Below are positions 7,463-58,871 of a stretch of 64,000 bases of DNA, piece after piece (the stretch's first letter is position 1; each line of letters starts with the position of its first letter). Position numbers and translations under genes: made by a program. This DNA is from a virus. The notes below the pieces were generated by a model. The model worked only from the letters and a program-made list of their open reading frames with translations. It made no database searches and was not told the DNA's origin. The DNA is taken from positions 43,411 through 107,410 of IMG/VR virus record IMGVR_UViG_3300032006_002703. One strand, given 5' to 3'.

Positions 7463-7463
7463 A

Positions 7464-10693: not shown

Positions 10694-10727
10694 CGGCACA
10701 GTATATAGTAAATAATCTGTGAGAAAA

Positions 10728-12195: not shown

Positions 12196-13237
12196 TTATT
12201 AAGTCAAGAAGTATCTTTTTGTTTTTTAGCAACTGTTTTGATAACTCTTTATTCTCTTGCATTTCTTTAATTATTTCTAGAATAAATCTCCTCTGCTCTA
12301 TTTCTTTAATTTCTGTTTTTTTATTTTCCCATTTAAGGAAGTCCTTCTCGTCCATATCTCCGAAGTCATTTTTTACTGGTAGACAGAGCATTATTTTTTC
12401 TGGCGGAAAATGAGATAAGAGCTTTAAATAATTTTTAACGGAAGCTTTAAGGCCTCTATTTTCTTCCTTGCCTAAATCGTTATTGAATGCAATTATTATT
12501 TTTTTTGGACATAAGGATATTAGCGCACAAATTAATTTTGGTGAGATACTAAGACCGAAAGATACTAATGTGTTTTTATGGCCAAATTCTTGACACTTTA
12601 GTAAATCCCCTATGCTTTCCACTAGGATCACTTCATCCTTCTTTAAAATGCACTCCCTGGTCTCGCTATCTGTATACAGTGGATATATCCAGCTACTTTT
12701 TCTTCCAACATGTTTCCACTTTGGTCTCATAGAATTTTGGAGCATATCTCTTCCTGAAAACCCGTGGATTTGTTTATGTTCGTTATATATAGGGAATACG
12801 AATCTCTGATTTAGTTGTCCCGAGGTCGCTCTCCCTCCTTTAAGATTCTTAAGTATCTTGCTTGAGATTCCTTTATCATTATAGAATTTATAATGTGGAA
12901 GTAGTCTTTCTAGGCAGGATTCGTCATGAATTTCTTCTAGTTCGATTTTTTGTGGAGCGCATCTTTTACTATAAAGTTCGTCGATTTTATTATTTTTAAA
13001 ATATTTATTAATTTCTTTCGGGTCATTAGTTCCCAAGGTTGCTTGAATTAACCTTTTAAGCGGTGAGAATCGAGTGCCCTTAACGTAATCTTTCCACACT
13101 CCTGTATCTTTGTAGATTTGTATGGCTGTTGTATTGTCTCCATTTCTGAATATCGCATTCGTTTGCCAATAGGCGCCCCTGTCCGAGAGTTTGTATCCCA
13201 GGTCCTCTAGCACCTCCTTAATTTGTTCGCTATCCAT
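12188..13237 (-). CDS. DNA primase (DnaG-like, TOPRIM)
   Basis: RFVFPIYN....IHGFSGR, PKWK, VILVESIGD, IIIAFNND, KNDFGDM; adjacent to the helicase. Confidence 0.85.
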   Translation of the reverse strand: MDSEQIKEVLEDLGYKLSDRGAYWQTNAIFRNGDNTTAIQIYKDTGVWKDYVKGTRFSPLKRLIQATLGTNDPKEINKYFKNNKIDELYSKRCAPQKIELEEIHDESCLERLLPHYKFYNDKGISSKILKNLKGGRATSGQLNQRFVFPIYNEHKQIHGFSGRDMLQNSMRPKWKHVGRKSSWIYPLYTDSETRECILKKDEVILVESIGDLLKCQEFGHKNTLVSFGLSISPKLICALISLCPKKIIIAFNNDLGKEENRGLKASVKNYLKLLSHFPPEKIMLCLPVKNDFGDMDEKDFLKWENKKTEIKEIEQRRFILEIIKEMQENKELSKQLLKNKKILLDLINE

Positions 13238-13240
13238 AAT

Positions 13241-14764
13241 TTAAAGAGTCGGGACTGTGTTCTCTCGGTCGCCCCCGTCATCAATTAAAGCTACATCTTC
13301 TAGGATCATATGGTCAACCATATCTCTTAGGTCGCCCTTTTCCGTTATTCCAAAGTTTTCTATCTCAAGGTTGATATAATTTTGTTTAGTGCTTCCGTCT
13401 GCTAATTCTACAGGCTGCAATGCTCTATAAACATCTGGACCTAAGTGCCTATGTTTAAAACAAATTAATTTATGGGTGCCAAAGCCTGCAGGCTCTGAAT
13501 CTAGTTCGTCAAGCGTTTTCTTTCTTAGGCTAAATAGATGAGAACTAAATTGAGTAATTCTGTCAGAAAGAGAAACGATACTTTCATCGTCCACAATTGA
13601 ATCTGAATTTCTATTCGTGGTTATTCCGTACCTATTACTTTGAACACTGGTAATCATTGATATCATAGGATCTCCTTCGAAACATATTTCCTTTTGAACC
13701 AGGGCCTTAAACTTGTCTACCATTTCTCCGACCACCTGCCACTCGTTCTTATTTGAGAATTTCTCTGAGGTTGTCTTGATATAATCAAAACTAAAAATCA
13801 TCTTGTTTCCTCTTCCTACTTTTGCATAATAAAACCTTTTTATAATATTTAACATTGCGTCCACCGAAAGCCCTGCTACGTTATAGTAATAGAATTTTAG
13901 ACTTTTTACCTTAGGCCAAACTGCCCTAACCTTATTGATTACCTCATCCCCAGCTTGTCTCCATTTTCCTGTTTCAAGTAAATGAAGGGGAACCCCAGAA
14001 AGCGCCGCGCACTGACGCATAGTCAGCTCTTCTTTACTCATTTCTCCGTTATCAAAGTGGAGAACTGGAAGGTTTTCTTGAGAGCCTGAAACTTTAATCG
14101 AAAAATCCATACAAAAATTTGTTTTCCCGACTCCAGATCTTGCAACAATTACTGTTATATTTCCTGGCCTAAGGAGGGATCCGTAAAGATCGTTAATTCT
14201 AGAGTGAGGTCCTTCTGGGCCAAAGTCTTCTATGGGATTATTTCCCCTCTCTTCGATCATTTGCTCCATCTCTTCGAATATGTTTTCTGGAGAATCGGAG
14301 CCTTCTTGGTAGGTGTTTATTTGCTCGTTGTAAATTGTATCCGCGCTATTAATTATCTCATCATAAGAGGTTGAGTCTGGTAGTGACCTCATTTTTTTTG
14401 CGACATTAACTGATGCGTCATAAATGCCCCTTCTTACCGAAACTTTTTTTAACTCTTTAGCTGTTTTTATGACAGAGTTTTCTGATATTTTGCGCATAGA
14501 CAGAGCTTTAATGTAGTCTCCTATATTTAGGTTATCCTCAAATGATATCCCCAATGAGCTAACCCTTTGGGCTAATATAACCTCATCAAGAATCTCTCCC
14601 GACTCCAAGGCCTGCTTCAGGACGCAGAATATAGTTTTATTTACTAACGAATTTTCATCGTAGAAGTCCTGCTCAGAGATGAATGGGGCAACCTCAACAT
14701 ATAAATTAGGATACTTCATCAAACCTGCGAGCAAATGCTGTTCGTAATCTAGTGAATGGATCAT
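13241..14764 (-). CDS. dnaB: Replicative helicase, DnaB family
   Basis: Walker A ARSGVGKT, FDNGEM, FDYIK, QSNR. Start reassigned to ATG 14764 from promoter position. Confidence 0.88.
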   Translation of the reverse strand: MIHSLDYEQHLLAGLMKYPNLYVEVAPFISEQDFYDENSLVNKTIFCVLKQALESGEILDEVILAQRVSSLGISFEDNLNIGDYIKALSMRKISENSVIKTAKELKKVSVRRGIYDASVNVAKKMRSLPDSTSYDEIINSADTIYNEQINTYQEGSDSPENIFEEMEQMIEERGNNPIEDFGPEGPHSRINDLYGSLLRPGNITVIVARSGVGKTNFCMDFSIKVSGSQENLPVLHFDNGEMSKEELTMRQCAALSGVPLHLLETGKWRQAGDEVINKVRAVWPKVKSLKFYYYNVAGLSVDAMLNIIKRFYYAKVGRGNKMIFSFDYIKTTSEKFSNKNEWQVVGEMVDKFKALVQKEICFEGDPMISMITSVQSNRYGITTNRNSDSIVDDESIVSLSDRITQFSSHLFSLRKKTLDELDSEPAGFGTHKLICFKHRHLGPDVYRALQPVELADGSTKQNYINLEIENFGITEKGDLRDMVDHMILEDVALIDDGGDRENTVPTL

Positions 14765-14772
14765 ATTGCTAT

Positions 14773-14801
14773 AGTATAGCAAACAATCCAACGAATGTCA
14801 A
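14773..14801 (-). promoter_or_regulatory. sigma70-type promoter for the helicase/primase block
   Basis: TTGACA-17nt-TATACT, 8 nt before ATG 14764. Confidence 0.8.
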
Positions 14802-15076
14802 TCGTTATCTTCGGAATTTAATCCTAAATCTACGGACGTGCCCATTTCTTCCATTTGTGCTAGATATTGCTCCATTGCCTTCCTGAGGCCCATCTCTATA
14901 ATTTGAGAGCTTGACTTCGAGATGATGGCAGGGGATCCATTTTGAGCAACAAAGGCTAAAATTAGCCCTTTATTTTCTTCAGCGTCTCCAGTAAAGGAAT
15001 ATAATTGCTCTAATAGCCCTTCGGGGATAGTGAATTGAGGTAAAGATTCTGGATCAATTTCCATATTGTCATCCAT
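14798..15076 (-). CDS. Small acidic hypothetical protein
   Basis: ORF with a GTGTAT box 8 nt upstream. Confidence 0.7.
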   Translation of the reverse strand: MDDNMEIDPESLPQFTIPEGLLEQLYSFTGDAEENKGLILAFVAQNGSPAIISKSSSQIIEMGLRKAMEQYLAQMEEMGTSVDLGLNSEDND

Positions 15077-15097
15077 GTTATTATATACACTACATCT

Positions 15098-15502
15098 TTA
15101 TATAGCGAATTTTTTAAATAAACCAGAGTCTAAATCATCCGAATCATGAATCTCTATGAGTTTGATATTATTTAATTCACAAAATTCTTTTTTTTGCTTG
15201 TCTCTGCGTAGCTGATGAAGGAAGTTTATTTTTTGATTGTTGTGAAAATGAGGGACATATTTTGTGTGCTGTGCTCCTTGTACCTCTATTGCTATTTTTT
15301 TTGTAGCATTGTAAAAATCTATACTCATTTTTGTTCCTGCTACTGGGAGCTCCTCGAAAACTACTTGGTTTTCCCATCGCGCTTTTAAAAGCGTTTTTAC
15401 CTTAAATTGCCTCTTGCTCCTACTGGGCGACTCCCAATCTATTATATACTTTCTGATCTTGCGGACCCTTTTCGTTCCGCCGCTAATGGTTTTAAAGAGC
15501 AT
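15098..15502 (-). CDS. DUF559/Vsr-like restriction-fold endonuclease
   Basis: IDFY....IAIEVQGAQH...RDKQK..FC....IKLIEI pattern. Confidence 0.75.
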   Translation of the reverse strand: MLFKTISGGTKRVRKIRKYIIDWESPSRSKRQFKVKTLLKARWENQVVFEELPVAGTKMSIDFYNATKKIAIEVQGAQHTKYVPHFHNNQKINFLHQLRRDKQKKEFCELNNIKLIEIHDSDDLDSGLFKKFAI

Positions 15503-16577
15503 TGCTTATTTTCTGAAAATCCTTATACATAAATTCTGTAATTTCAGGATTTGACTCTAGGTATTCGAGCAGCTTTGGTTCGCCTTGTATTTTTTCTGGA
15601 ACCTTTAATCCTGCGTCTTTCAATTCTTTGATAAGAGAGTCCGCAAAACTTATCCAAGCCCCCTTTTTTTGAATCATGTCAAAAAGGTACATCATATCTA
15701 TAATTTCTCTTTCCTTCCATATTCCGCCATTTTTCCCGTATTTAATCGGGTATCTAACCTGAGATCCAGTTTTTTCATTTACGGATTTCCTGAATCGTAT
15801 TTTACAATAGTGGCCTATGGGGTCTCCTTTATCTGCGAGCTTTGAGGCGGTGGGGTTTTTAAACATAATGTCATTATTATATCTTTCTTCGAACTCTAGT
15901 ATGAAATTTGCGTAATGTTTTATTGCGTTTCCTCCAGCTTGCTTTACCTTGGGGCCTCCTCGTGCCGCATATGGATTGGTTGCAACCTCTACTCTTATCT
16001 GGGATGTAAGTATCATCATGTGTCCCATTTTGGTAATTGGAAGAACCATCTTCTTTAAAAATACAGAAGTTATAAGCGCTCCTCCCGCCACTTGTTCTGA
16101 TTCATCAAATGGCTTATCTATGTCTCCTATTCGACATAATGCGTCAACGCTATCTATAAGAAATAAAAATCTTTTTTCTTCAGGATTGTCGAGGACTAGC
16201 TGTCTAATTAATTCAAAAACTTTTTCAAAGATATTGCAATCAAAAATAAATAATTTTTCTGGATCCCTATCTATTCCAAGCTTGTCTAGCATTTCATTTT
16301 GCAGTCTTCCTTCACTCTTGACTATCACGACCATGCCATCGTCTTTAAAATGTTCTTGAAAGTTTTTCGCAACAGTTAATGCGCAACTTGTTTTACCTCC
16401 CTCGTTTATTCCTGTAAGTCTATGTGCTCCCGCGCAAAATCCCCCGTCTAGAGCAATATCCAAATTGAGGCTCCCAGAGGAAATTTTATAGTCTGCATCA
16501 GCATAGCCATTGTAGTGATATTTTTTGTTTTCCTTATTTGAGAGGAATTCGTTAATTTGATCTATTGCTCGGGTCAT
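15492..16577 (-). CDS. RecA/UvsX-like recombinase
   Basis: SSGSLNLDIAL.GG, Walker A GINEGGKTS, LIDSV, SQIR, GGNAIKHYA, KKGAWISF. Confidence 0.88.
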   Translation of the reverse strand: MTRAIDQINEFLSNKENKKYHYNGYADADYKISSGSLNLDIALDGGFCAGAHRLTGINEGGKTSCALTVAKNFQEHFKDDGMVVIVKSEGRLQNEMLDKLGIDRDPEKLFIFDCNIFEKVFELIRQLVLDNPEEKRFLFLIDSVDALCRIGDIDKPFDESEQVAGGALITSVFLKKMVLPITKMGHMMILTSQIRVEVATNPYAARGGPKVKQAGGNAIKHYANFILEFEERYNNDIMFKNPTASKLADKGDPIGHYCKIRFRKSVNEKTGSQVRYPIKYGKNGGIWKEREIIDMMYLFDMIQKKGAWISFADSLIKELKDAGLKVPEKIQGEPKLLEYLESNPEITEFMYKDFQKISNAL

Positions 16578-19866: not shown

Positions 19867-20442
19867 TTACACCTCTTTGTTTGGCTTCGGGCAGATTTTT
19901 GAAATCATTTGATTTCTATTTTTCCCCGCATAGTACCAATGCCAGGCAATATCTTCCCTCATTTTTTTAATTTCAGCCTCCTTTTTATTGAGTTGATTCT
20001 CTAGTAGATCTAAGCACCTCATGTCAAGATGTGATAGGTCAATTTCTAACTCGACTGCTATCTTTAGTAGAGAATCTACGTCCTTTTTGTTTTTTGCCTT
20101 CGTTGCTTTATTATAGAGGGCTTGTTTTTTCTCTGCTTCGCTTTTTGGTTTATTTATAAGTTTGTCTGGGTGGGTTAGGATTACAATTTTTCTATAAAGG
20201 TCTTTTATCTGTGTTGAGGAAAATATTAGATCCTCTTGTTCTGTTGCTGCTTTTTTTCCTGGAGGGTCTTGGGTTAGGGGGTTTGGTATGTCGTTTTCTT
20301 TGCAATGAGTTATTATTGCCTCTACCCATTCCTTTTTAGCTTCTAGGAAAATTTCTCTGGTTTCATTATAATCTAATTCTATATATTTAGATTTATATTT
20401 AAGTTTTCGAAACCTGGAGGATTTTTGTTCGTCAGGATTCAT
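19867..20442 (-). CDS. J-domain (DnaJ-like) protein
   Basis: IKDLYRKIVILTHPDK with intact HPD motif. Confidence 0.75.
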   Translation of the reverse strand: MNPDEQKSSRFRKLKYKSKYIELDYNETREIFLEAKKEWVEAIITHCKENDIPNPLTQDPPGKKAATEQEDLIFSSTQIKDLYRKIVILTHPDKLINKPKSEAEKKQALYNKATKAKNKKDVDSLLKIAVELEIDLSHLDMRCLDLLENQLNKKEAEIKKMREDIAWHWYYAGKNRNQMISKICPKPNKEV

Positions 20443-20456
20443 GCAGCTAAATACAC

Positions 20457-20487
20457 AAAAAAAAGGGCGGGGAAAGCCCCCGCCCTT
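20457..20487 (-). terminator. Rho-independent terminator after the repeat fibre gene
   Basis: Minus strand AAGGGCGGGG-GCTTT-CCCCGCCCTT followed by a T run. Confidence 0.9.
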
Positions 20488-20510: not shown

Positions 20511-21473
20511 TTACAATGAAGCAATATAGTCGAGGCTATAATCTGCGCTAGGCGTTTCATCCGAGAAGATGAAGGTAGCCCCCGAGGTGGAGACTCCACT
20601 TAGCTGTACAGCAAGAATAGGATCGCCTGCAGAATTCCTAAGCATTCCCATGATTTTGGGAGCAGAGGAAAACGTTTGAGAGAACGTAATTGCCTTGGAG
20701 GCAAGGTTGTTCCCTATTGCGACAGAACCTACTTCGGATTCACCGTCAAGATCGCTTACGGCAGTACTTAGCGTAGCGATGTTGGTCGAATTAGCCTTCA
20801 TGCCTGTAGAAACGGTGTTCTTCGCGGCACTCAATGTGCTGATCGCCTGAGAGCGAGCTGTAGACTCACTGACTACTGCGGAAGAAACGGTGTTCTTCGA
20901 GGCACTCAATGTGCTAACGGCATTCGAACGAGCTGTAGACTCACTGACTACTGCGGAAGAAACGGTGTTCTTTGCGGCACTCAATGTGCTGATCGCCTGG
21001 GAACGAGCTGTAGACTCACTGATTACTGCGGAAGAAACGGTGTTCTTCGCGGCACTCAATGTGCTGATCGCCTGGGAACGAGCTGTAGACTCACTGACTA
21101 CTGCGGAAGAAACGGTGTTCTTCGCGGCACTCAATGTGCTAACGGCATTCGAACGAGCTGTAGACTCACTGACTACTGCGGAAGAAACGGTGTTCTTCGC
21201 GGCACTCAATGTGCTGATCGCCTGAGAGCGAGCTGTAGACTCACTGACTACTGCGGAAGAAACGGTGTTCTTCGCGGCACTCAATGTGCTAACGGCATTC
21301 GAACGAGCTGTAGACTCAGTGGTTACTGCGGAAGAAACGGTGTTAAGATCATCGTCGAGGGCGAGATCTTTTGCACCGCTACCAGAGTCAACCGTGAGCT
21401 TGCTCGAGACTGCGTTATTAGCTAGAATGGCTCCGCCATTTAGCTTGACTTTCTCTGTGTTGAAGATAGCCAT
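20511..21473 (-). CDS. Ser/Thr/Ala-rich coiled-coil fibre protein with C-terminal H-type-lectin-like domain
   Basis: Seven 25-aa repeats SSAVVSESTARS(NAV/QAI)STLSAAKNTV; C-terminal ITFSQTFSSAPKI...VSTSGATF...LDYIA. Confidence 0.7.
   Translation of the reverse strand: MAIFNTEKVKLNGGAILANNAVSSKLTVDSGSGAKDLALDDDLNTVSSAVTTESTARSNAVSTLSAAKNTVSSAVVSESTARSQAISTLSAAKNTVSSAVVSESTARSNAVSTLSAAKNTVSSAVVSESTARSQAISTLSAAKNTVSSAVISESTARSQAISTLSAAKNTVSSAVVSESTARSNAVSTLSASKNTVSSAVVSESTARSQAISTLSAAKNTVSTGMKANSTNIATLSTAVSDLDGESEVGSVAIGNNLASKAITFSQTFSSAPKIMGMLRNSAGDPILAVQLSGVSTSGATFIFSDETPSADYSLDYIASL
20808..21344. repeat. 75-bp tandem repeat, 7 copies (coding)
   Basis: AGAAACGGTGTT recurs every 75 nt from 20808 to 21333. 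Confidence 0.95.
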
Positions 21474-21524
21474 ACTTATATGTACAAAGAAAACTAGCTT
21501 TGTGGGAACAGTCTGATATGATTT

Positions 21525-22904
21525 TTATAAAATATTTTCAGCATACATTTTCATATACAAAAATTTACTGCTTTCGGTGTAACTAGAGAAGTTCCGTAAG
21601 AAAGGATTCTTTTCGCTTTGAGGGCAATGGTCGAGGCAAAGTCTCTCGTCATCAATAATTTTAAAATTAAAGCCAGACGGGTCCGAGGCTTTTAATATTT
21701 CTTTAAAATCTGATTCCCCATTTGCTTTTTCTAATAAATTTTTGGTATACTGATGACACTTAATCATGCACGCTTCACTTTTTTCGCTTAATATTAAATA
21801 CTTAGTAGTGTTTTTGAAAAAATCTTCAATCATATTTTCTGGATTACAAATAAGCATGGAGTCTGTAATAAAGAGTATGTATTTATGTTCATTAATATGA
21901 CTTGCTATGGCTCGATACTTTTCCGTTCCTTGTTCTCTATATATATAAGCAGTATAATTATGTTTGTTTGCGTATCTTAAAACGTTATTCTCTGCCTCGA
22001 TCGAATGACGCCCTTCGTTGGAGATGGTTATCACTGCAACATCCTGGCCAGTGTTGTAGGAAATGTTCCCTTCTTTTGTTGAGGCTTCTTGTACTGAGGT
22101 GGGAACGTATCTACTTGCAAATTCTGTTACATCTTGCTTCTTTTGGGTTTTTTGTGCAATTGGACTTTCGAAAGAATAGTTAAATAACTCTAGGTCTTTT
22201 TTGTATACAGACTCAACAATAGCTCTGGATTCTTCGTCGTAATACTCGCTGTAATGCTTTTTTCTTTTTTGATTTCTTATTTTGGGGAGAGTTGCATTTT
22301 TAATGTTAATTTTTTTACAGATATAGTTGAAATCTTTTTCAATATTCTCAAATTTTCCTACATATGAAACAAAAGGTTTTCCGTTATCGGAATCCGCCTC
22401 TTCGGGATCATAGAGGAATTTATATTGCGGGAGGAAGTGGACGTTATATTTTGTCACTGGGTCACAAAGATCATCTTTAGTTAGATAGCTTTTACAGAAT
22501 TCTGTGAAGCTTGAAAAATTAAAGTCTGGATCTGTATTTCCCTCGTTACCCTCAAACTCTTTCCTTCTTGAAGCGTAAGTATAGGCTGAAACTACCCTAT
22601 CAAAAGGGTTTCTTACGAAGGCGCAGGAAAAATAGGATGGGTCATCGATGTAGGGCTGAACCAGGAATTTATTAATTGGGTAAAACGGATGGGCATAATC
22701 AACTGAATTTTCAAAATATAAAGAATTCTTTTTTTCGTTAAATATAGAGACTCGAATCTTTTTAAAGCCATCCGAGGATTCTACGCCTCTTATCATGGCT
22801 TGTTGAGAGCCGTAATTCCCCTCTCCCCAGACCATATTCATGCTAGAGCCTGCTGTTTTGGGAATATGGATAAATATAAATTTATGTTCTTTTGAGATAA
22901 TCAT
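21525..22904 (-). CDS. Sulfotransferase family 2 domain fused to a degenerate GT34-like domain
   Basis: FIHIPKTAGSS, FVRNPFDRVVSAY, HFLPQ, VGKFE, DLELFNY; C-terminal half with YANKHNY and YILFITDSMLICNP. Confidence 0.75.
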   Translation of the reverse strand: MIISKEHKFIFIHIPKTAGSSMNMVWGEGNYGSQQAMIRGVESSDGFKKIRVSIFNEKKNSLYFENSVDYAHPFYPINKFLVQPYIDDPSYFSCAFVRNPFDRVVSAYTYASRRKEFEGNEGNTDPDFNFSSFTEFCKSYLTKDDLCDPVTKYNVHFLPQYKFLYDPEEADSDNGKPFVSYVGKFENIEKDFNYICKKINIKNATLPKIRNQKRKKHYSEYYDEESRAIVESVYKKDLELFNYSFESPIAQKTQKKQDVTEFASRYVPTSVQEASTKEGNISYNTGQDVAVITISNEGRHSIEAENNVLRYANKHNYTAYIYREQGTEKYRAIASHINEHKYILFITDSMLICNPENMIEDFFKNTTKYLILSEKSEACMIKCHQYTKNLLEKANGESDFKEILKASDPSGFNFKIIDDERLCLDHCPQSEKNPFLRNFSSYTESSKFLYMKMYAENIL

Positions 22905-23573
22905 TTAAAAATCGTATTTGAAAAAATCTATGTCTTTTTTGTATATGCTTGCCACCTCGTCTATGCATTTTTGTGATTTATAGTACTCTTGGTAGGGCCT
23001 GGGGTCGGGAGTTGAATTTACGTGAGGTAGCGTTTCTTCGGTTATGTTTAATTTTTTACACACGTAATTAAAATCATTTTGAAGATTTTCAAATCTTCCG
23101 ATAAAATCTAAATTCATCTCATTTTTCTCGTTTGTGATAAAATTTAACTGTGGTCCGCTAAACATATATTTTCTGTGTGGGTTCCACCAATGCGCATTTT
23201 GAGCTAATTTTATCATCTTCCAGAAATCAAAAACAAACTCCTCGAATCCTATGTTTGGTATTGAGGTCCCTCCAATATCCGCCCATCCTAGACTTTGGGA
23301 AGCAGGAGCTTTGGGGCACTTTAGATGTTTCCAAAGAGATACCATACGACTCCATGGGTTTCGCACAAAGGTAAAGGTGAAGTAATCGTTAAGGGGATCC
23401 GTCATTGATACGTCATATTCAATTATTGAGTCATGTTTTGTGGGCCAATTCCAATTAGGATCCTCAGATATTGTGGTGGCGTCCTTGAATTTTTCTTTTA
23501 AAACCAACTCAATACTGCAACCTGCAGTCTTAGGTATATGAATGTAGATGAACTTGTCTATTTTTGAGATCAT
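22905..23573 (-). CDS. Sulfotransferase family 2 protein
   Basis: YIHIPKTAGCS, FVRNPWSRMVS, FIGRFENLQNDF, DIDFFKY. Confidence 0.88.
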   Translation of the reverse strand: MISKIDKFIYIHIPKTAGCSIELVLKEKFKDATTISEDPNWNWPTKHDSIIEYDVSMTDPLNDYFTFTFVRNPWSRMVSLWKHLKCPKAPASQSLGWADIGGTSIPNIGFEEFVFDFWKMIKLAQNAHWWNPHRKYMFSGPQLNFITNEKNEMNLDFIGRFENLQNDFNYVCKKLNITEETLPHVNSTPDPRPYQEYYKSQKCIDEVASIYKKDIDFFKYDF

Positions 23574-24679
23574 AAGATTTTGACTATTGTATCATAAGCG
23601 TTAATATTTTTTTGATTAGTTGTGCTGAATTTCGCTAGGCATTCTTTTGCTTGGCCTTTGTAATAATCTAGATTTTCATCGTGCATTGTTAGGGCATAGC
23701 GAAGCTGATTTACTGCATTTTGTATGTTTCTTACGTCATAATAGTAAGCAAACTCTTTAATTGCTTCCGAGTTATGAAGTAAGGGAAACCCTAGGTGAAG
23801 AAATTCTAAATGTCTAACTTCGAGATCTCCCTGCAAGTGGTTTGTTATTATTACTTTGCCCCACCTACTTAAGGCTTGCGGGTTTCTCCATTTATTGTTT
23901 AAAAAGACTTTCGGTGGGGTCAACTTACAAATGGATAGGTTTGCTGACAGTTGTTTAAAGCGGGTGCTTGTTCGTATCTTTTCGCAATTTGTAATAATAA
24001 CTTTATCTATTATATCTGGATGTTTATGGTTGAGCTTTTCGCATATTGCAAGCGGTAGTAGACATGTTGAGGTTATATTTTTATTTTCCTCGAATATGCA
24101 AACCGTATTCTTTTCTTCGCTTTTATAAAAAGGAGATTTTCCTTTTATTTTTAAGTCTCTTATCTCTTCTCCAAGAAACTTGGAGTCCCAAATTAGCGGT
24201 ACGGTTTTCGCTGGACAGGCGTACGTTGCCTCTAAATAAGGAATCGTTCTCGCTAAATGGTCCCAGGTCCAAATTTGATCAAATTGACGAATTAATCTTT
24301 GGGGAGGATTTGGGTGATTTGAGGTGGACATTTCACTGTCTAACATGTAGTGATCTTCAAGGCATAGATAAATGAATTTACAAGTTGGATTTTTACGCTT
24401 TAGTTCCTTGGCTACGTCTGCTTCATATTGAAAACCAGCTTCAATGCAAACATCAAAAGGAGTTGGTGATTTTTCATGAGGATCGAATCTGGCTAAAAAA
24501 TGACCCGCCCTTAATATGTCAAACCCAGAGCTTTTGTGTCGTGGATTGAATTTTTTATTTGTTACCAAAAAACATTTATGGCCAGCACGAGCTAAGGTAT
24601 CCGCAATAAAAATTATTAACTGATTTATTGAGGAGTTTCTTGGGTTGATTGCTGTGTTAATTGTTATCCCTATGTTCAT
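23570..24679 (-). CDS. DUF2827-like glycosyltransferase-fold protein
   Basis: MNIGIT, FDQIW, VPLIWDS, IFEEN.N..STC.LP, EFLHLGFPLLHNS, YYY; paralog of the next gene. Confidence 0.7.
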   Translation of the reverse strand: MNIGITINTAINPRNSSINQLIIFIADTLARAGHKCFLVTNKKFNPRHKSSGFDILRAGHFLARFDPHEKSPTPFDVCIEAGFQYEADVAKELKRKNPTCKFIYLCLEDHYMLDSEMSTSNHPNPPQRLIRQFDQIWTWDHLARTIPYLEATYACPAKTVPLIWDSKFLGEEIRDLKIKGKSPFYKSEEKNTVCIFEENKNITSTCLLPLAICEKLNHKHPDIIDKVIITNCEKIRTSTRFKQLSANLSICKLTPPKVFLNNKWRNPQALSRWGKVIITNHLQGDLEVRHLEFLHLGFPLLHNSEAIKEFAYYYDVRNIQNAVNQLRYALTMHDENLDYYKGQAKECLAKFSTTNQKNINAYDTIVKIL

Positions 24680-25776
24680 AGAAGATCTTTATAAGCCTGT
24701 TGGACGGCGGGGTTGTCTGGGTTGTATCTCCAAATTATTTGTTTACCCCTTTCTTTGTAATCTTCTAGATTATCATTATGGTTTGATATTGCATTTTTTA
24801 ATGCTGAAACTCCTTGTTTTAGAGCAAATCCAGGATAATAGTAGCCTGCTTCATTTTTTATAAATTCTGAATTATGAATAAGGGGTATACCCAGATAGAG
24901 CGCTTCTAAATAGGTATAGTTTAGCGCGTTCATGTGTTGATGGGAAACAATGTAGTTGCAGTGCTCTGAAAAAATAAATGGGAATGGAAATCTTTTTTCG
25001 AAGAACATCTTCCCGTCTTGCACTAAATCTAATTGCAGAAAATAGTTAGAAAAGTAACTTTCATCTGCAAAGTGATCACTGCCCCAAATATGAACCGAGT
25101 TTATTGCGTCTGCATTTTCATTATAAAGCCCCTCTGATATAAGTGCGGGACATATGCAATTTTTTACAATATTATTCGGTTCCGTTATTGCAATGTTTAC
25201 ATTTTCTGAAGGACTGTAAAAGGCGGTTTTGTCTTTTTGGTTTAATTTCTTTTCTTCATTTTCTATAGTTTCTGAGGACCATATGTAGGGAATGAATTTT
25301 ACGCTCTCTGTTTCATTTGTAATTTTATAGTAATCTATAGAATAGTCATAATGGGGGGAGGTCCATACTTCGTCTACGCTTCTCTGTCTTCCCATTCCTC
25401 CTCCATTTGATCCATTGATGCAAAATTCAAGATCTATGAAGAGTCTTGGGCCATAATTGACTTGTATGATTTTAATTGATGGATTTCGGTTTCTTAATAT
25501 TTTTATCCAATCCTCTCCCCAGGTTATAGCTGCTTGTATAAATAGATCACATTTTATATCCTGATCCATGACCTCCTTCATTGAACAAACTTCGTAGTTG
25601 TCCAATAAAACTTTTTTATTTACCGCTATGTTTTCGTCTTCTAGGGCATGTTTTTCTGCAACAAGTAAGGTTTCGTGCCCAAGAGACTGAAATATATTAT
25701 ATAAAGCGAAAATATTTTGATTTTGTCCGTTCGAAAATATTCCCGTGCTAAAGTCTGCTGTTATAAGAATCCTCAT
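24676..25776 (-). CDS. DUF2827-like glycosyltransferase-fold protein
   Basis: IFSNG.NQN, DEVWTSPH, PYIWS, EPN..VKNCICP, VSHQ..NALNY.YLEALY.G.PLIHNS, GYYYP; GTGTAC box 12 nt upstream. Confidence 0.8.
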   Translation of the reverse strand: MRILITADFSTGIFSNGQNQNIFALYNIFQSLGHETLLVAEKHALEDENIAVNKKVLLDNYEVCSMKEVMDQDIKCDLFIQAAITWGEDWIKILRNRNPSIKIIQVNYGPRLFIDLEFCINGSNGGGMGRQRSVDEVWTSPHYDYSIDYYKITNETESVKFIPYIWSSETIENEEKKLNQKDKTAFYSPSENVNIAITEPNNIVKNCICPALISEGLYNENADAINSVHIWGSDHFADESYFSNYFLQLDLVQDGKMFFEKRFPFPFIFSEHCNYIVSHQHMNALNYTYLEALYLGIPLIHNSEFIKNEAGYYYPGFALKQGVSALKNAISNHNDNLEDYKERGKQIIWRYNPDNPAVQQAYKDLL

Positions 25777-25881
25777 CTTGATCAGAATGTACACTGTTAT
25801 TTAAAAGGAAAGAATAAAACTCTGCCTATTAAAAAGTCTCCAAAGTAACTTTTAACTTTTCATGTAACTTTAATAAAGTTT

Positions 25882-25887
25882 GTGTAT
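25882..25887 (+). promoter_or_regulatory. GTGTAH box before the portal gene (representative of 11 exact copies; see findings)
   Basis: GTGTAT 10 nt before ATG 25898; a mirror GTGTAC (25789-25794, minus strand) serves the divergent DUF2827 gene. Confidence 0.7.
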
Positions 25888-25897
25888 TATAACTCTG

Positions 25898-27961
25898 ATG
25901 GGCAAGCGAAAATACATTAAAAAGTCTTCCTATTGGGACCAATTCTCCAGGGCAGACCAAGTAGAGATTCAGCCTTCTCCTAATCCAATTTTAACTGGAG
26001 ATCCATACTTGGGAGATGGGACAGAATCTTTTGAGGTCCTTAAGGGTAGTTACTCTAGGACTGGGTCAAGAATTGTTGACGCTGCCAGAAAAAATAAAAT
26101 ACATAAATCAATTAAGAAGGAGAAGCATGGTAATATTGCTTCTGGCTTACTTCCTTATCAGGTTGGTGAAGATGGAGTTTCTGTACAGGATGCTATCGAG
26201 CTCTGTCAAAAGGCTTATACAAATATAGCAGTGTTTCGCAATGCGGTTGACGTTATGTCTGAGTTCGCTAATTCTACATTATATTTAGAGGGTGGAGTTT
26301 CTAAGTCTGTCGATTTTATTTATAAATGGTTCGATAGGGTTAAAATGGGGAACCTTAAAGATCAATATTTTAGAGAATACTATAGGTCTGGCAATATATT
26401 TTTATATAGAATTGATGGTAAATTTGATCAAACAGCCTTTAAGGAAATGAGTAGGGTTTATGGCGAGGAGGGCTTAATGCAACCTGGGACTTTGCCTGTT
26501 AAATATATAATGCTTAATCCTTTTGACATCTCTGCTAAGCGAGCTACTTCGTTTGCTGAGGGAGCATACTTCAAAGTCTTATCCGAATACGATATCGAGG
26601 TCCTGGCGAATCCCAAGACTGATTACGATAAAGAAGTGTTAGAAGGTTTACCTCCAGAAATTAAAACAAAAATCAAAGAGGGTAATTATCAGCAAACTGG
26701 CTTGGAGTATCAGCTTGACCCTGCAAAATTGAGCTATTCTTTTTATAAGAAGCAGGATTATGAGCCGTTTGCCATTCCCTTTGGTTACCCAGTATTGGAG
26801 GATATTAATTTTAAAATCGAATTAAAGAAGATAGATCAGGCTATTTGTCGTACTATTGAAAATGTAATTCTTTTAATTACGATGGGAGCAAAACCTGATG
26901 ACGGAGGTATAAATCCTAATAATATGGCAGCAATGCAGGAGCTTTTTAAAAATGAAAGCGTGGGGCGTGTGCTTGTCAGTGATTATACTACCAATGCAGA
27001 GTTTGTTATTCCTGATTTAAATAAAGTTTTAGGATCTGAAAAATATAAAATTGTAGATCAGGATATTAAAGAGGGGCTTCAGAATATTATCGTTGGGGAT
27101 GAAAGGTATAGTAATACTCAGGTTAAGGCTCAAATATTTTTAGAAAGACTAAAGGAGGCAAGGAACGCATTTTTGACTGATTTCCTTCAGCCTCAAATCA
27201 AAATGATTTGTCAGAATCTTGGATTTAGGAAATATCCTATCGCAAAATTTGAAGAAATTGATATTAAGGATGAGGTTCAGCTTCAGAGGGTTGCGACCAG
27301 ACTTTTAGAGCTGGGTATAATTACCCCCGAGCAAGGTATTAATGCAATTAAGACAGGAATCTATCCAAAGCCTGAGGAGCTCGCATCTTCCCAGGAGGAG
27401 TATTTAGTTAACCGAGAGCAGGGTTACTTTAATCCACTCGTAGGAGGAATGCCCACCGTTGAAGCTGCAGGTGCGGACGAAGAGCGAAAGCTTAAGGAAA
27501 AAATTTCAGAAAATACCCTAAATCAGCAGGCTGAAATGCGCCAACAGTCTCAAACTGGAACCCCTCCGAAGGAATCTGGTCGACCAACGGGTGCCACGGG
27601 ACCGCAGGGGCAAGCTTCTAGCGTTATATCAACAGAAGATATAAAAAATATAATTTATAAGGCAGAAAATTTAAAGTCTTACGCAGTAAGTGTTATAAAA
27701 AAGGAAAAAAACAAAAAGAGAATCAGTAAGGCTCAATCAGAGATATTAGATGAGCTTTGCAAGTCGGTTATTGCGTCTAAGGTAGAGAATGAATGGGAAC
27801 AGGCTATAGAGTCATGCGTTCGGGACAATAATGAAATCGTTAAGCTTGTCCCCATGAAGGAAATCTTAGATATTTCGGAACGCGATTCATTGGACCTGTA
27901 CGCTGCGGCACTTTACTACCACAGTAGGAATCAGGAGAATGATAGCGAACGTAACAGTTAA
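25898..27961 (+). CDS. Probable portal protein
   Basis: About 690 aa, first gene of the structural block; FRNAVDVMSEF, FREYYRSGNIFLY, KKQDYEPFAIP and a low-complexity C-terminus resembling large-phage portals. Recognition only. Confidence 0.6.
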   Translation: MGKRKYIKKSSYWDQFSRADQVEIQPSPNPILTGDPYLGDGTESFEVLKGSYSRTGSRIVDAARKNKIHKSIKKEKHGNIASGLLPYQVGEDGVSVQDAIELCQKAYTNIAVFRNAVDVMSEFANSTLYLEGGVSKSVDFIYKWFDRVKMGNLKDQYFREYYRSGNIFLYRIDGKFDQTAFKEMSRVYGEEGLMQPGTLPVKYIMLNPFDISAKRATSFAEGAYFKVLSEYDIEVLANPKTDYDKEVLEGLPPEIKTKIKEGNYQQTGLEYQLDPAKLSYSFYKKQDYEPFAIPFGYPVLEDINFKIELKKIDQAICRTIENVILLITMGAKPDDGGINPNNMAAMQELFKNESVGRVLVSDYTTNAEFVIPDLNKVLGSEKYKIVDQDIKEGLQNIIVGDERYSNTQVKAQIFLERLKEARNAFLTDFLQPQIKMICQNLGFRKYPIAKFEEIDIKDEVQLQRVATRLLELGIITPEQGINAIKTGIYPKPEELASSQEEYLVNREQGYFNPLVGGMPTVEAAGADEERKLKEKISENTLNQQAEMRQQSQTGTPPKESGRPTGATGPQGQASSVISTEDIKNIIYKAENLKSYAVSVIKKEKNKKRISKAQSEILDELCKSVIASKVENEWEQAIESCVRDNNEIVKLVPMKEILDISERDSLDLYAAALYYHSRNQENDSERNS

Positions 27962-33588: not shown

Positions 33589-34467
33589 ATGAGTACTGAC
33601 TCTGACGCAAGGGCTCAATTAGGAAACGTATTAAGCGTTCTTCCGCAGAAGCTTCATAAGATAGAATTCGATGCATCTTATGATTTCGCCTCAGAAATTC
33701 CCGTTTCTAAAAATATGCTTTCCCTTGATTCCCTTGGGGTCGCCTGGATTTCGGAAGATAATCCTAATGCAATTAACGATGGCAACCTTTATTTGTGGAA
33801 GAAAATTGGCGGGTCCTCTGTTGTTGGCGACGGGGGCGGAGCTGGTGGCGGAGGTGGATTAACCTTAAGCGGGGTCGGCGACGGCGTTGGTTCGGGAGTC
33901 GGGTATATTGATTCTCTATTTTTGGATATTGAAACCGATCCTAATGGACTGGAGCTTGTTAAGCCCCCAGGAAAAAATCCCACAGTTAAACTTTCAGATC
34001 AACTCGCCCAAGCCTCAAATGAGTTGGTTATTATGTGGACTATTCCTGAAGGTTTCAGGAAAGGCTTAGTTCCATTTCCCGACACTTTTAATGTTCCCGC
34101 GAATACGACGCCGACAGTATTTACTCAACTTATTGCAAGTGGCAATCCTACTCCCAGTTATGCAACTACAGTTTCTAATGTCACTTCTAGTGGTTTTGAG
34201 CTGGAATTGAGCGCTCAGGTTAATGAGCCTCATCAGTCGATGAATATATTAATTAAAACTAATGAGCCCGTGGAGATGGTGGGTATACCTGAGCTTCCAG
34301 TTGGTTGGGATTGGTTCGTTTTTGATACTGAGGCGGAGATTTTGGGCCTTTACCAGCTTAACCAATTAATTGTTAATAGTATTTATTACGCAAAGGACAC
34401 TAATCGTATGTATATTTTATCCTCAGAAACTAATGAATTAGTGTACTATCAAGGGAGCCCTGTATAA
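33589..34467 (+). CDS. Virion structural protein C (adaptor-like; H-type-lectin-like middle domain)
   Basis: N-terminus like B, Gly linker, FPDTF...PTV...SNVTSSGF domain, C-terminal IYYAKDTNRMY. Confidence 0.55.
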   Translation: MSTDSDARAQLGNVLSVLPQKLHKIEFDASYDFASEIPVSKNMLSLDSLGVAWISEDNPNAINDGNLYLWKKIGGSSVVGDGGGAGGGGGLTLSGVGDGVGSGVGYIDSLFLDIETDPNGLELVKPPGKNPTVKLSDQLAQASNELVIMWTIPEGFRKGLVPFPDTFNVPANTTPTVFTQLIASGNPTPSYATTVSNVTSSGFELELSAQVNEPHQSMNILIKTNEPVEMVGIPELPVGWDWFVFDTEAEILGLYQLNQLIVNSIYYAKDTNRMYILSSETNELVYYQGSPV

Positions 34468-52791: not shown

Positions 52792-52797
52792 AATAAA

Positions 52798-57832: not shown

Positions 57833-57894
57833 TTTTCGTTGAAATTCTTGTTTTTAAGACTACTATTCAAATAGAGGGTGTACATTTATACATT

Positions 57895-58833: not shown

Positions 58834-58837
58834 GTAG

Positions 58838-58865
58838 TTGACTTAAGGAGGAAGTGACGTATAAT
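58838..58865 (+). promoter_or_regulatory. sigma70-type promoter
   Basis: TTGACT-16nt-TATAAT, 6 nt before ATG 58872. Confidence 0.72.
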
Positions 58866-58871
58866 ATATAA

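What the first reader, a model, noticed from the sequence alone, without database searches (positions are those of the whole stretch)
20511..25794. Candidate fibre glycosylation-and-sulfation cassette: 2x DUF2827 + 2x sulfotransferase + Ser/Thr-rich fibre
Seen: a self-contained unit from a GTGTAC box (25789) to a strong terminator (20457). It encodes two DUF2827-like paralogs, two PAPS-type sulfotransferases and a coiled-coil fibre whose 25-aa repeat is 9/25 Ser/Thr and ends in a lectin-like knob. From my recollection of the family, DUF2827 genes occur as paralog groups beside Ser/Thr-rich (LST-repeat) trimeric adhesins in Burkholderia, and the fibre here has similar STNIATLSTAVS/STLSA text. 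Inference: DUF2827 enzymes O-glycosylate the fibre and the sulfotransferases sulfate the glycan, giving a proteoglycan-like virion appendage. This is my best candidate for an undescribed system.
Basis: partly seen in the sequence, partly recalled or inferred. Interest (0 to 1): 0.85.

Follow-up and report, generated by a model that had tools for sequence, protein, structure and literature searches.

The report
Phage fibre glycosylation-and-sulfation gene cassette
An uncultured marine phage encodes sugar-adding and sulfate-adding enzymes beside a serine/threonine-rich fibre, in a cassette shared by dozens of related phages, so it probably coats that fibre with a sulfated sugar layer, which no experiment has yet shown.

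Summary
Five tightly packed minus-strand genes (25794 to 20511) end in a strong terminator. They encode two DUF2827 proteins, two Sulfotransfer_2 enzymes and a 320-aa fibre.

The fibre has a 25-aa repeat in about eight copies, with 10 Ser/Thr per repeat. It models as a 204-residue helix followed by an H-type-lectin-like knob.

- The second sulfotransferase is fused to a GT34-like domain that has lost its DxD motif.
- The second DUF2827 lacks 12 of 26 family-conserved residues. Six sister proteins share this pattern.
- A J-domain co-chaperone gene directly downstream belongs to the conserved module.
- The unit is not self-contained. It has no sugar-nucleotide or PAPS genes, and a second glycan cluster lies at 47-63 kb.

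In 79 IMG/VR loci the order is DUF2827 pair, then variable glycosyltransferase and glycan-decorating genes, then a fibre of this family, then a J-domain gene. DUF2827 folds as a GT4-like GT-B enzyme. A Burkholderia plasmid places three DUF2827 genes behind a YadA-like adhesin with the same SLST-type motif.

Best reading: a dedicated fibre O-glycosylation system whose glycan is sulfated here (confidence about 0.5). This scan has already noted the DUF2827-fibre pairing on other DNA (44 notes, at least 37 genomes). New here are the sulfation variant and the two degenerate domains.

The parts
25789..25794 (-). GTGTAC box, 12 nt upstream of the likely true start (ATG 25776) of the first gene. It is a candidate phage-specific promoter or leader motif.
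   Evidence: Sequence read. The motif recurs before other genes according to earlier notes. I did not test its function.
24676..25776 (-). DUF2827 paralogue 1 (position-1 clade), a canonical GT-B, GT4-like glycosyltransferase and the probable initiating fibre O-glycosyltransferase. The mechanical ORF runs to GTG 25794.
   Evidence: Pfam PF10933 E 3e-69. It keeps 26 of 26 family-wide conserved residues. AlphaFold2 pLDDT 90, pTM 0.89. Foldseek matches MshA, BshA, WaaG, PimA, T4 AGT and GtfA/B.
23570..24679 (-). DUF2827 paralogue 2 (position-2 clade), a degenerate form. It has lost the Asn-Gly loop, the invariant Lys and other residues. It is probably a non-catalytic or re-specialised partner. 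It overlaps its neighbours by 4 nt on each side.
   Evidence: Pfam E 1e-57. It keeps 14 of 26 conserved residues, the lowest of 117 sequences. Six metagenomic sisters (56-76% identical) share the same loss pattern. The tree shows two old clades by gene position.
22905..23573 (-). Stand-alone PAPS-type sulfotransferase (Sulfotransfer_2).
   Evidence: Pfam E 5e-20, PHROG 3347 E 7e-24. It keeps 51 of 59 columns conserved among 112 homologues, including HIPKxxGxS and RNPWxRxxS.
22167..22904 (-). Sulfotransferase domain (residues 1-246) of the 459-aa fusion protein.
   Evidence: Pfam Sulfotransfer_2 E 3e-19, residues 2-244. It keeps 45 of 59 conserved columns and both PAPS-binding motifs.
21525..22097 (-). 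GT34-like GT-A domain (residues about 270-459) of the same protein, degenerate. The DxD motif W-M-D-S-D-T of the relatives reads F-I-T-D-S-M here.
   Evidence: BLASTP E 4e-21 to L032:14450-15226, which Pfam calls Glyco_transf_34 at E 2e-12. It keeps 29 of 83 conserved columns against a median of 82. There is no significant Pfam hit in the window protein itself.
20511..21473 (-). Fibre protein of 320 aa. It has a conserved N-terminal ~30 aa, a 204-residue helical stalk of 25-aa Ser/Thr-rich repeats, and a C-terminal H-type-lectin-like beta domain. It is the presumed substrate. A TTGTAC box lies 8 nt before its ATG.
   Evidence: S+T is 33% against 14.5% background. It holds 8 of the 10 [ST]LS[STA] motifs found in all 62 window ORFs.
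20808..21344 (-). 75-bp tandem repeat array that encodes the 25-aa stalk repeats.
   Evidence: Tandem Repeats Finder: period 75, 7.2 copies, 90% matches, score 885.
20463..20487 (-). Intrinsic-terminator-like hairpin that closes the operon just after the fibre stop codon.
   Evidence: 11-bp stem, 8 G-C pairs, 3-nt loop, T run. Terminator-like sites in the region as a whole are no more frequent than in shuffles, but this is by far the strongest.
19867..20442 (-). J-domain co-chaperone (191 aa, HPD at residues 91-93). It is a conserved downstream neighbour of the fibre gene in related phages and has its own GTGTAT box.
   Evidence: Pfam DnaJ is below its cut-off (E 0.0012; 21.8 bits). A family profile (A4, invariant H-P-D) hits J-domains as its 28 best PDB matches (31 of 32 in all), best E 5e-6. 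Homologues occur in 25 of 54 non-redundant DUF2827 loci.

Best explanation
This is a dedicated fibre-modification cassette. During late infection the four enzyme genes and the fibre gene are transcribed together.

Proposed steps:
1. The canonical DUF2827 enzyme (paralogue 1), a cytoplasmic GT4-like GT-B glycosyltransferase, puts the first sugar on Ser/Thr of the periodic S/T-L-S-type motif in the fibre's helical stalk.
2. The degenerate paralogue 2 and the degenerate GT34-like domain act as non-catalytic partners, for substrate binding or complex assembly, much as GtfB serves GtfA on serine-rich repeat adhesins.
3. The two intact PAPS-dependent sulfotransferases, one tethered to the complex through the GT34-like domain, sulfate the attached sugar using host PAPS.
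4. The J-domain protein recruits host DnaK to keep the long repeat chain competent for modification and trimerisation.

The product would be a trimeric fibre about 30 nm long, with a lectin-like tip and a polyanionic sulfated glycan coat, mounted on the virion.

Shown here: the domain identities, the fold, the synteny, the motif sharing and the degeneracy patterns. Inferred: the fibre as substrate, glycan as the sulfate acceptor, a heteromeric enzyme complex, the chaperone role and a virion location.
For: **Enzyme identities**
- Pfam hits for both DUF2827 and both sulfotransferases are above their cut-offs.
- The DUF2827 model has pLDDT 90 and matches retaining GT4 enzymes and GtfA/B.

**Synteny in 79 IMG/VR loci**
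- DUF2827 comes in pairs in 57 of 80 loci.
- The order is pair, variable enzymes, fibre with the same N- and C-termini, J-domain gene.

**The variable genes are glycan enzymes**
- Among 69 non-redundant genes: GT34 in 25, GT25 in 24, GT32 in 15, GT47-like in 13, GT2 in 6, GT8 in 4, pyruvyl transferase in 5, sulfotransferases in 5, plus methyltransferases.
- No flippase, polymerase or lipid-carrier enzyme appears among the Pfam families listed. This fits direct cytoplasmic protein glycosylation.

**Sulfation is tied to glycan synthesis**
- The sulfotransferase is fused to glycosyltransferase domains here and in L001 (Sulfotransfer_2 + GT25 + GT2 + GT32).

**The fibre looks like a substrate**
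- Fibres of this family have 20-35% S+T against 14.5% background.
- Ser/Thr-rich proteins are enriched within 4 genes of DUF2827 (odds ratio 5.0, p 3e-7).
- A B. glumae plasmid has a YadA-like adhesin followed by three DUF2827 genes. That adhesin has 31% S+T and 10 [ST]LS[STA] motifs. The window fibre has 8 such motifs out of 10 in the whole window. The preprint reports the same association.

**State of the domains**
- Both sulfotransferase domains keep the family's conserved residues.
- Paralogue 2 and the GT34-like domain do not, yet the paralogue-2 pattern is conserved in sister proteins.

**Operon structure**
- The enzyme genes overlap by 4 nt or abut, and one terminator follows the fibre gene.
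Against: - There is no biochemical evidence for any step.
- DUF2827 has never been assayed, and its donor and acceptor are unknown.
- Nothing shows that the fibre is a virion component. It has only weak PHROG and Pfam hits.
- Gene adjacency in a structural region is confounded. Fibres are often Ser/Thr-rich, and the loci are phylogenetically related, so the enrichment p-value overstates independence. Only 31 of 54 loci show a Ser/Thr-rich neighbour, although many loci are truncated.
- Sulfotransferases occur in only about 6 of the related cassettes.
- The phage carries two other large glycan clusters that could serve a different target, and this cassette could feed into them.
- A folded coiled coil is an unusual acceptor for a GT-B enzyme.
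- No APS kinase or PAPS supply is encoded, though the genome is only an estimated 76% complete.
Confidence: 0.5

Rival explanations
1. The enzymes do build a sulfated glycan, but on another target. Candidates are other virion proteins (capsid, tail), working with the phage's two larger glycan clusters, or the infected cell's envelope glycans, as a host-takeover or superinfection-exclusion function. The fibre would be only a neighbour.
For: - The same genome has a 16-kb cluster with GT2 x3, GT32, Sulfotransfer_3, Gmd, a nucleotidyltransferase, GT4 and GT9, and a nine-gene sugar operon upstream (note e1-6018783).
- PHROGs files this sulfotransferase family under 'moron, auxiliary metabolic gene and host takeover'.
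- In mycobacteriophages the known glycan targets are capsid and tail-tube subunits (as described in PMC12619734).
Against: - The fixed order of pair, glycosyltransferases, fibre and J-domain gene holds across dozens of loci, while the glycosyltransferase content varies.
- No membrane, flippase or lipid-carrier enzyme appears in the Pfam tally of these cassettes.
- Bacteria place DUF2827 directly behind adhesins that carry the same motif.
Confidence: 0.2
2. The DUF2827 pair glycosylates the fibre, but the sulfotransferases are unrelated passengers. They would act on a host metabolite, lipid or polysaccharide, or directly on protein hydroxyls, and merely inserted into a variable slot.
For: - Sulfotransferases are present in only a minority of cassettes: the window, L001, L010, L012/L013 and L067.
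- The slot between the DUF2827 pair and the fibre is a hot spot of gene turnover.
- This sulfotransferase has 1,044 metagenomic homologues, most of them probably outside such cassettes.
Against: - The sulfotransferase is covalently fused to glycosyltransferase-type domains in two independent architectures.
- The other occupants of the slot are all glycan-building or glycan-decorating enzymes, such as pyruvyl and methyl transferases.
- From general knowledge, not tested here: characterised Sulfotransfer_2 members are carbohydrate sulfotransferases.
Confidence: 0.15
3. DUF2827 and its partners glycosylate phage DNA (hypermodified bases), as T4 alpha-glucosyltransferase does. Linkage to the fibre would be coincidental.
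For: - T4 AGT is among the fold matches (rank 14).
- Virus-encoded glycosyltransferases that hypermodify DNA are known (cited in PMC12619734).
Against: - No thymidylate-synthase-type hydroxymethylase is found in the 107-kb contig, although it is incomplete.
- Bacterial DUF2827 genes sit behind adhesin genes.
- The cassette lies beside the probable portal gene and the fibre, not in the replication module.
- From general knowledge: sulfated or pyruvylated DNA glycans are unknown.
Confidence: 0.04
4. The cassette is decaying. With a degenerate paralogue 2 and a degenerate GT34-like domain, glycosylation has been lost in this phage, and the remaining genes are relics or have an unrelated new role.
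For: Paralogue 2 keeps 14 of 26 conserved residues and the GT34-like domain keeps 29 of 83. Both are at or near the bottom of their families.
Against: - All reading frames are intact and tightly coupled.
- Paralogue 1 and both sulfotransferases keep their conserved residues.
- Six sister proteins at 56-76% identity share the paralogue-2 substitutions and keep the rest of the fold motifs. This indicates a stable, selected subfamily.
Confidence: 0.06

Closest known systems
DUF2827 gene arrays beside trimeric autotransporter adhesins in Burkholderia, Veillonellales and Pasteurellales (bioRxiv 10.64898/2026.01.22.700529)
   Same: - Same Pfam family (PF10933).
- Two or three successive copies.
- They sit directly next to a fibrous, trimeric, Ser/Thr-rich protein with SLST-type motifs.
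- Cytoplasmic enzymes, with no experimental function.
- Seen here on a B. glumae plasmid: YadA-like adhesin, then three DUF2827 genes, then a prolyl isomerase.
   Different: - Here the system is viral.
- The fibre is not an autotransporter: it has no beta-barrel anchor and no signal peptide.
- The pair belongs to two old position-specific clades.
- It is joined by a hypervariable set of extra glycosyltransferases, sulfotransferases and a J-domain protein.
- Identity to the Burkholderia proteins is only about 28-29%.
GtfA/GtfB O-GlcNAc transferase pair with further glycosyltransferases for serine-rich repeat adhesins of Gram-positive bacteria (PMC6973325, PMC5207161; PDB 5e9t)
   Same: - Two adjoining GT-B paralogues next to a Ser-rich repeat fibre.
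- Cytoplasmic O-glycosylation before assembly.
- Strain-variable extra glycosyltransferases extend the glycan.
- One paralogue may be non-catalytic.
- 5e9t is among the fold matches (rank 42).
   Different: - A different sequence family: DUF2827, not the GtfA/GtfB families.
- No accessory Sec export genes.
- The substrate here is a predicted helix rather than a disordered repeat.
- Degeneracy of paralogue 2 is seen in this phage clade only and not in most pairs.
- Sulfation is not part of the serine-rich repeat adhesin system.
Mycobacteriophage virion glycosylation (Freeman et al. 2023, Cell Host Microbe; known to me through its citation and summary in PMC12619734; the paper itself was not held)
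   Same: Phage-encoded glycosyltransferases near structural genes modify the phage's own virion proteins.
   Different: - The targets there are the C-termini of capsid and tail-tube subunits, not a repeat fibre.
- Different glycosyltransferase families.
- No sulfotransferase and no J-domain partner.
H-type lectin knobs and phage or pyocin fibre tip domains (Helix pomatia agglutinin 2ccv, R-pyocin fibre 6cl5, LKA1 gp49 4ru4)
   Same: The C-terminal 75 residues of the fibre model as a six-stranded beta domain with these as best matches (TM about 0.5). From general knowledge, H-type lectins are trimers, as a coiled-coil fibre would be.
   Different: The sequence signal is below Pfam's cut-off. 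Sugar binding is untested. In this fibre family the C-terminal domain is the conserved end, not the variable one.

Membership tests
DUF2827 (PF10933) | Full-length match to the family HMM above the gathering score | tested here: met
   234 bits and 196 bits against a cut-off of 25, covering positions 12-362 and 1-360 of 362.
DUF2827 (PF10933) | Retention of the residues conserved in at least 90% of family members (Asn-Gly loop, EPN...K, R, N-Y...E, PxxHNS, GYYY, H) | tested here: met
   Paralogue 1 keeps 26 of 26. Paralogue 2 does NOT meet this: 14 of 26, the lowest of 117 sequences. The same pattern is seen in six sister proteins.
GT-B fold, GT4-like glycosyltransferases | Two Rossmann-like domains with an inter-domain cleft, and structural similarity to solved GT4 enzymes | tested here: met
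   AlphaFold2 pLDDT 90, pTM 0.89. Foldseek probability 1.00 to MshA, BshA, WaaG and PimA, TM up to 0.65. Tested for paralogue 1 only.
GT-B fold, GT4-like glycosyltransferases | Sugar-nucleotide-dependent transfer activity | not testable with these tools
   No assay exists for any DUF2827 protein.
Sulfotransfer_2 (PF03567), PAPS-dependent carbohydrate sulfotransferases | HMM match above the cut-off, plus the 5'-phosphosulfate loop (PKxxG-S/T) and the 3'-phosphate motif (RxPxxRxxS) | tested here: met
   73 and 70 bits against a cut-off of 22. HIPKTAG-S and VRNP-x-x-R-x-x-S are present in both. They keep 51 of 59 and 45 of 59 conserved columns, against a median of 55.
Glyco_transf_34 / DUF273-type GT-A domain | Significant HMM match and an intact DxD metal- and nucleotide-binding motif | tested here: not met
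   There is no Pfam hit in the window protein. Homology to GT34-positive relatives is clear (BLASTP 4e-21). However, the DxD motif present in all 32 relatives is lost, and only 29 of 83 conserved columns remain. This is a homologous but degenerate domain.
H-type lectin (PF09458) | HMM match above the cut-off, the H-lectin beta-sandwich fold, and sugar-binding residues | tested here: inconclusive
   Pfam 17.2 bits against a cut-off of 24. The best fold matches are 4q56 and 2ccv at TM 0.53, E 1e-3. I did not examine binding residues.
J-domain (DnaJ, PF00226) co-chaperones | Helix II, HPD loop, helix III | tested here: met
   Pfam is below its cut-off for the single sequence. H-P-D is invariant in 25 family members. 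The family profile hits J-domains as its 28 best PDB matches (31 of 32 in all), best E 5e-6.
Serine-rich repeat adhesin GtfA/GtfB glycosylation system | Paired GT-B paralogues, a Ser-rich repeat substrate and accessory Sec export genes | tested here: not met
   A paired GT-B and a repeat substrate are present. The sequence families differ, and no SecA2/SecY2 genes are in the cassette. This is a functional analogy only.

The most novel reading that the evidence does not exclude
A large, uncultured group of marine phages carries a hypervariable fibre-glycan cassette: an old DUF2827 heteropair, a shuffling set of glycosyltransferases and glycan-decorating enzymes, a repeat fibre and a J-domain co-chaperone. 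It would diversify the sugar coat of a virion fibre much as bacteria diversify O-antigens. In this phage's clade the glycan-extending enzymes have become non-catalytic scaffolds, and two sulfotransferases make a glycosaminoglycan-like polyanionic fibre. If the host is a sulfated-polysaccharide-degrading Verrucomicrobium (Coraliomargarita or Puniceicoccaceae type), the fibre could mimic the host's food polymers and be captured by its glycan-binding surface proteins as a first adsorption step.
Probability: 0.12. Interest if true: 0.9.

Novelty: new variant of a known kind. Interest (0 to 1): 0.62.

Why it matters
Protein glycosylation of phage particles is known experimentally only from mycobacteriophages. 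I know of no description of a sulfated virion glycan in a phage, and a library search for phage, tail fiber, glycosyltransferase and sulfotransferase together found no paper.

If the cassette works as proposed, it would:
- assign a first function and a natural substrate to the uncharacterised DUF2827 family. This would also bear on the glycosylation of Burkholderia and Veillonella adhesins.
- reveal a widespread, rapidly diversifying surface-glycan system in marine phages (169 IMG/VR loci).
- offer a compact five-gene set that can be tested in E. coli by mass spectrometry.

The degenerate paralogue 2 and GT34-like domain would be a clean natural example of enzymes turned into scaffolds.

Tried and rejected
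**Searches that found nothing or too little**
- Megablast of the cassette, and tblastn of DUF2827 and of the probable portal protein, against GenBank phages gave no match. The lineage has no cultured relative in that collection.
- tblastn of the sulfotransferase against GenBank phages gave only 3 weak hits.
- A single-sequence scan of IMG/VR found nothing. The alignment-based scan worked.
- phmmer of both sulfotransferases against PDB sequences gave no useful match.
- PHROGs has no family for DUF2827.

**Steps that were blocked**
I could not fetch the contigs of the closest relatives. P0004 and P0201 are reported on a contig of the same length (50,339 bp), and so are P0079 and P0198 (4,650 bp). 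This suggests, but does not prove, that sister phages keep the same arrangement.
- Freeman et al. 2023 is not held in the library.

**Readings considered and set aside**
- DNA glycosylation: no hydroxymethylase in the contig.
- Phage-encoded PAPS supply: no APS kinase.
- The GT34-like domain as an active third glycosyltransferase: rejected because the DxD motif is lost.

Full report
**1. What is there**

The window is the last 64 kb of a single 107,410-bp viral contig. CheckV estimates it as 76% complete.

On the minus strand between 25794 and 20511 lie five ORFs:
- 24676-25794
- 23570-24679
- 22905-23573
- 21525-22904
- 20511-21473

The first four overlap by 4 nt or abut. The fifth follows after 51 nt.

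Pfam calls the first two DUF2827 (E 3e-69 and 1e-57). It calls the third, and residues 2-244 of the fourth, Sulfotransfer_2 (E 5e-20 and 3e-19). PHROGs places both sulfotransferases in phrog_3347.

A GTGTAC box sits at 25794-25789, 12 nt before ATG 25776. That ATG, not the GTG inside the box, matches where homologues start. The strongest terminator-like hairpin of the region (11-bp stem, 8 G-C pairs, T run) lies at 20487-20463, just after the fibre stop codon.

Each cassette gene is single-copy in the contig.

**2. The fibre**

- A 75-bp tandem repeat (7.2 copies, 90% matches) encodes seven near-identical 25-aa units and one degenerate unit. There are 10 Ser/Thr per unit. Hydrophobic periodicity is 25/7 = 3.57 residues, as expected for an amphipathic coiled-coil helix.
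- AlphaFold2, run on an alignment of 21 family members, gives a low-confidence N-terminus (residues 1-37), one continuous helix (39-242) and a six-stranded beta domain (246-319, pLDDT about 90). As a coiled coil, 204 helical residues would span about 30 nm. That length is my inference.
- The best PDB matches of the beta domain are H-type lectins (4q56, 2ccv; TM 0.53; E 1e-3). Next come tailspike and R-pyocin fibre domains. The Pfam H_lectin hit is below its cut-off. 'Lectin-like knob' is therefore reasonable but not proven.
- S+T is 33% of the protein against 14.5% for all ORFs of the compared loci.

**3. DUF2827**

- The model of paralogue 1 (pLDDT 90, pTM 0.89) is a GT-B fold. Its best matches are retaining GT4 enzymes: MshA, BshA, WaaG and PimA. 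T4 DNA alpha-glucosyltransferase is at rank 14. The streptococcal GtfA/GtfB complex is at rank 42.
- A profile search of 1.84 billion representative proteins finds 1,198 clusters at E below 1e-10.
- The only relevant paper in the library is a 2026 preprint. [quoted passage not shown]
- I checked this on a Burkholderia glumae plasmid. A YadA-like gene is followed by DUF2827, DUF2827, a hypothetical gene, DUF2827 and a prolyl isomerase.
- That adhesin has 31% S+T and ten [ST]LS[STA] motifs. The window fibre has eight, one per repeat, out of only ten in all 62 window ORFs. The two proteins share a 9-mer with one mismatch (IATLSTAVS against IASLSTAVS).

**4. Comparative genomics**

- An alignment-based scan of IMG/VR found 169 viral loci, of which 79 were fetched.
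- DUF2827 is paired in 57 of 80 loci, counting the window.
- In the main group the gene order is fixed:
  1. a probable portal or large structural gene
  2. a small gene
  3. the DUF2827 pair
  4. one to five variable genes
  5. a protein that shares the fibre's N-terminal motif (MAKIFRTE.L.L), a repeat stalk with SSL-type motifs and the C-terminal ~90 residues
  6. a ~227-aa protein homologous to the window's 19867-20442
- A tree puts the first and second genes of the pairs in two separate old clades. The window's two genes fall one in each.
- Sixty-nine non-redundant genes (68 from the variable slot or between the DUF2827 genes of related loci, plus the window's fusion protein) were scanned against Pfam. 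The counts were GT34 25, GT25 24, GT32 15, RXYLT1_C/GT47 13, DUF273 8, GT2 6, pyruvyl transferase 5, GT8 4, Sulfotransfer_2 4, Sulfotransfer_4 1, several methyltransferases and IRX15/GXM 2. No flippase, polymerase or lipid-carrier enzyme appears among the 23 families listed.
- The slot therefore holds enzymes that build and decorate a glycan in the cytoplasm, and its content changes from phage to phage. Sulfotransferases occupy it in the window, L001, L010 and L012/L013, and lie next to DUF2827 in L067 and L083.
- In L001 the sulfotransferase is fused to GT25, GT2 and GT32 domains.
- Ser/Thr-rich proteins (at least 22% S+T, at least 150 aa) are enriched within four genes of DUF2827: 55 of 327 against 10 of 259 further away (odds ratio 5.0, p 3e-7; 31 of 54 non-redundant loci). 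Relatedness of the loci and the structural-gene context inflate this figure.

**5.

(a) A degenerate GT34-like domain.
- Residues about 270-459 of the 459-aa protein are homologous to the GT34-like domain found in 39 proteins of these loci, the window's own included (BLASTP 4e-21 to a Pfam-positive member).
- The window copy keeps only 29 of 83 conserved columns (median 82).
- Its DxD motif, present in all 32 relatives, is lost.

(b) A degenerate second DUF2827.
- Paralogue 2 keeps 14 of 26 family-wide conserved residues, the lowest of 117 sequences. It has lost the Asn-Gly loop and the invariant Lys.
- Six metagenomic proteins at 56-76% identity show the same losses and keep the same remaining motifs. 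This is a stable subfamily, not decay.

(c) Intact partners.
- By contrast, paralogue 1 keeps 26 of 26 residues.
- Both sulfotransferase domains keep the PAPS-binding motifs and 51 and 45 of 59 conserved columns.

(d) A true J-domain neighbour.
- H-P-D is invariant in 25 homologues, and their profile matches J-domains as its 28 best PDB hits, 31 of 32 in all.
- Homologues occur in 25 of 54 non-redundant DUF2827 loci, including a second, T4-like-looking group with single DUF2827 genes.

(e) The cassette does not stand alone.
- It encodes no sugar-nucleotide enzyme, and the contig has no APS kinase.
- The window holds a second cluster at 47-63 kb with GT2 x3, GT32, Sulfotransfer_3, a methyltransferase, a HAD-nucleotidyltransferase fusion, GDP-mannose 4,6-dehydratase (E 1e-106), WavE, GT4 and GT9.

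**6. Context**

- The divergently transcribed 693-aa protein at 25880-27961 has no Pfam or PHROG hit. Its nearest ESM Atlas clusters are viral and partly carry portal families (scores 0.95-0.96). I call it a probable portal on that lead alone.
- A Coraliomargarita MAG contig (L081) carries the same cassette order. Another agent tied a different operon of this phage to Verrucomicrobiota.
- This is a weak host hint, because binned contigs can be phage.

**7. Mechanism**

The best-supported reading is a dedicated system that O-glycosylates the fibre's repeat stalk and, in this phage, sulfates the sugar. Four lines of evidence support it:
- The enzyme families are firm.
- The linkage to the fibre rests on conserved synteny across many phages and on the independent bacterial parallel with the same sequence motif.
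- The link between sulfation and the glycan rests on domain fusions and on what else occupies the variable slot.
- The pattern of one intact and one degenerate GT-B paralogue, plus a degenerate GT-A domain fused to an active sulfotransferase, suggests a multi-protein complex. In such a complex the dead domains would hold the substrate or the partners, as GtfB does for GtfA (PMC6973325, PMC5207161). This last point is inference.

Rivals: another glycan target (0.20), passenger sulfotransferases (0.15), a decaying cassette (0.06) and DNA glycosylation (0.04). They are weighed in their own sections.

**8. Novelty**

- Within this scan the DUF2827-plus-fibre pairing has been reported many times on other DNA (44 notes in at least 37 genomes). 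The same stretch was also noted from another window.
- In the searched literature DUF2827 appears only in the preprint on bacterial adhesins and in a database paper.
- No paper combined phage, tail fiber, glycosyltransferase and sulfotransferase.
- Virion glycosylation is documented for mycobacteriophages on other proteins with other enzymes.

I therefore class this as a new variant of a known kind, namely dedicated glycosylation of a fibrous Ser/Thr-rich protein and phage virion glycosylation. Its particular interest lies in the sulfation and in the scaffold-like dead domains. Nothing here is experimentally shown.

Noticed in passing
window 47234-62662 (+): A second, larger glycan cluster: three GT2, GT32, Sulfotransfer_3 (52009-52791), a methyltransferase, a HAD-nucleotidyltransferase fusion (54185-55561), GDP-mannose 4,6-dehydratase (55558-56586, E 1e-106), WavE-like, GT4-like and GT9-like genes. 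It could supply donors or modify other targets.
   Followed up: partly
window 57805-58833 (+): A trypsin-like serine peptidase (Trypsin_2, E 2e-14) is embedded in the glycan cluster.
   Followed up: no
window 33589-34467 (+): A 292-aa protein in the plus-strand virion module also gives a weak H_lectin hit (E 0.008, residues 163-215). The knob domain of the fibre family also occurs inside 1,000-1,300-aa Gly-rich proteins of related loci. It appears to be a shuffled module among virion proteins.
   Followed up: no
window 25776-25794 (-): The mechanical ORF start (GTG 25794) is part of the GTGTAC box. Homologues begin at the Met encoded at 25776, so the real protein is probably 366 aa, not 372.
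   Followed up: yes
L110 (B. glumae plasmid NZ_CP100259.1) 7264-14430: The bacterial locus reads YadA-like adhesin, DUF2827, DUF2827, hypothetical gene, DUF2827, then a peptidyl-prolyl isomerase. A folding helper sits beside the DUF2827 array, which parallels the J-domain gene in the phage cassettes.
   Followed up: partly
L081 (Coraliomargarita MAG contig CBFHLR010000041.1): It has the same cassette order: DUF2827 x2, a 1,019-aa protein with the GT34-like domain, a 231-aa fibre and a J-domain gene. It is either a binned phage contig or a prophage, and gives a weak hint of a Verrucomicrobiota host.
   Followed up: no
L088 and L090 (Prochlorococcus single-cell assemblies): A single DUF2827 gene is followed directly by 897-aa and 1,407-aa proteins with 30-31% Ser+Thr. 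The pairing extends to cyanophage-type contigs.
   Followed up: no
window 5645-16577 (-): The region upstream of the cassette holds replication and recombination genes: DnaB-like helicase 13241-14791, primase-like 12188-13237, PD-(D/E)XK nuclease 11116-12195 and RecA 15492-16577. The cassette lies between this module and the probable portal gene.
   Followed up: no
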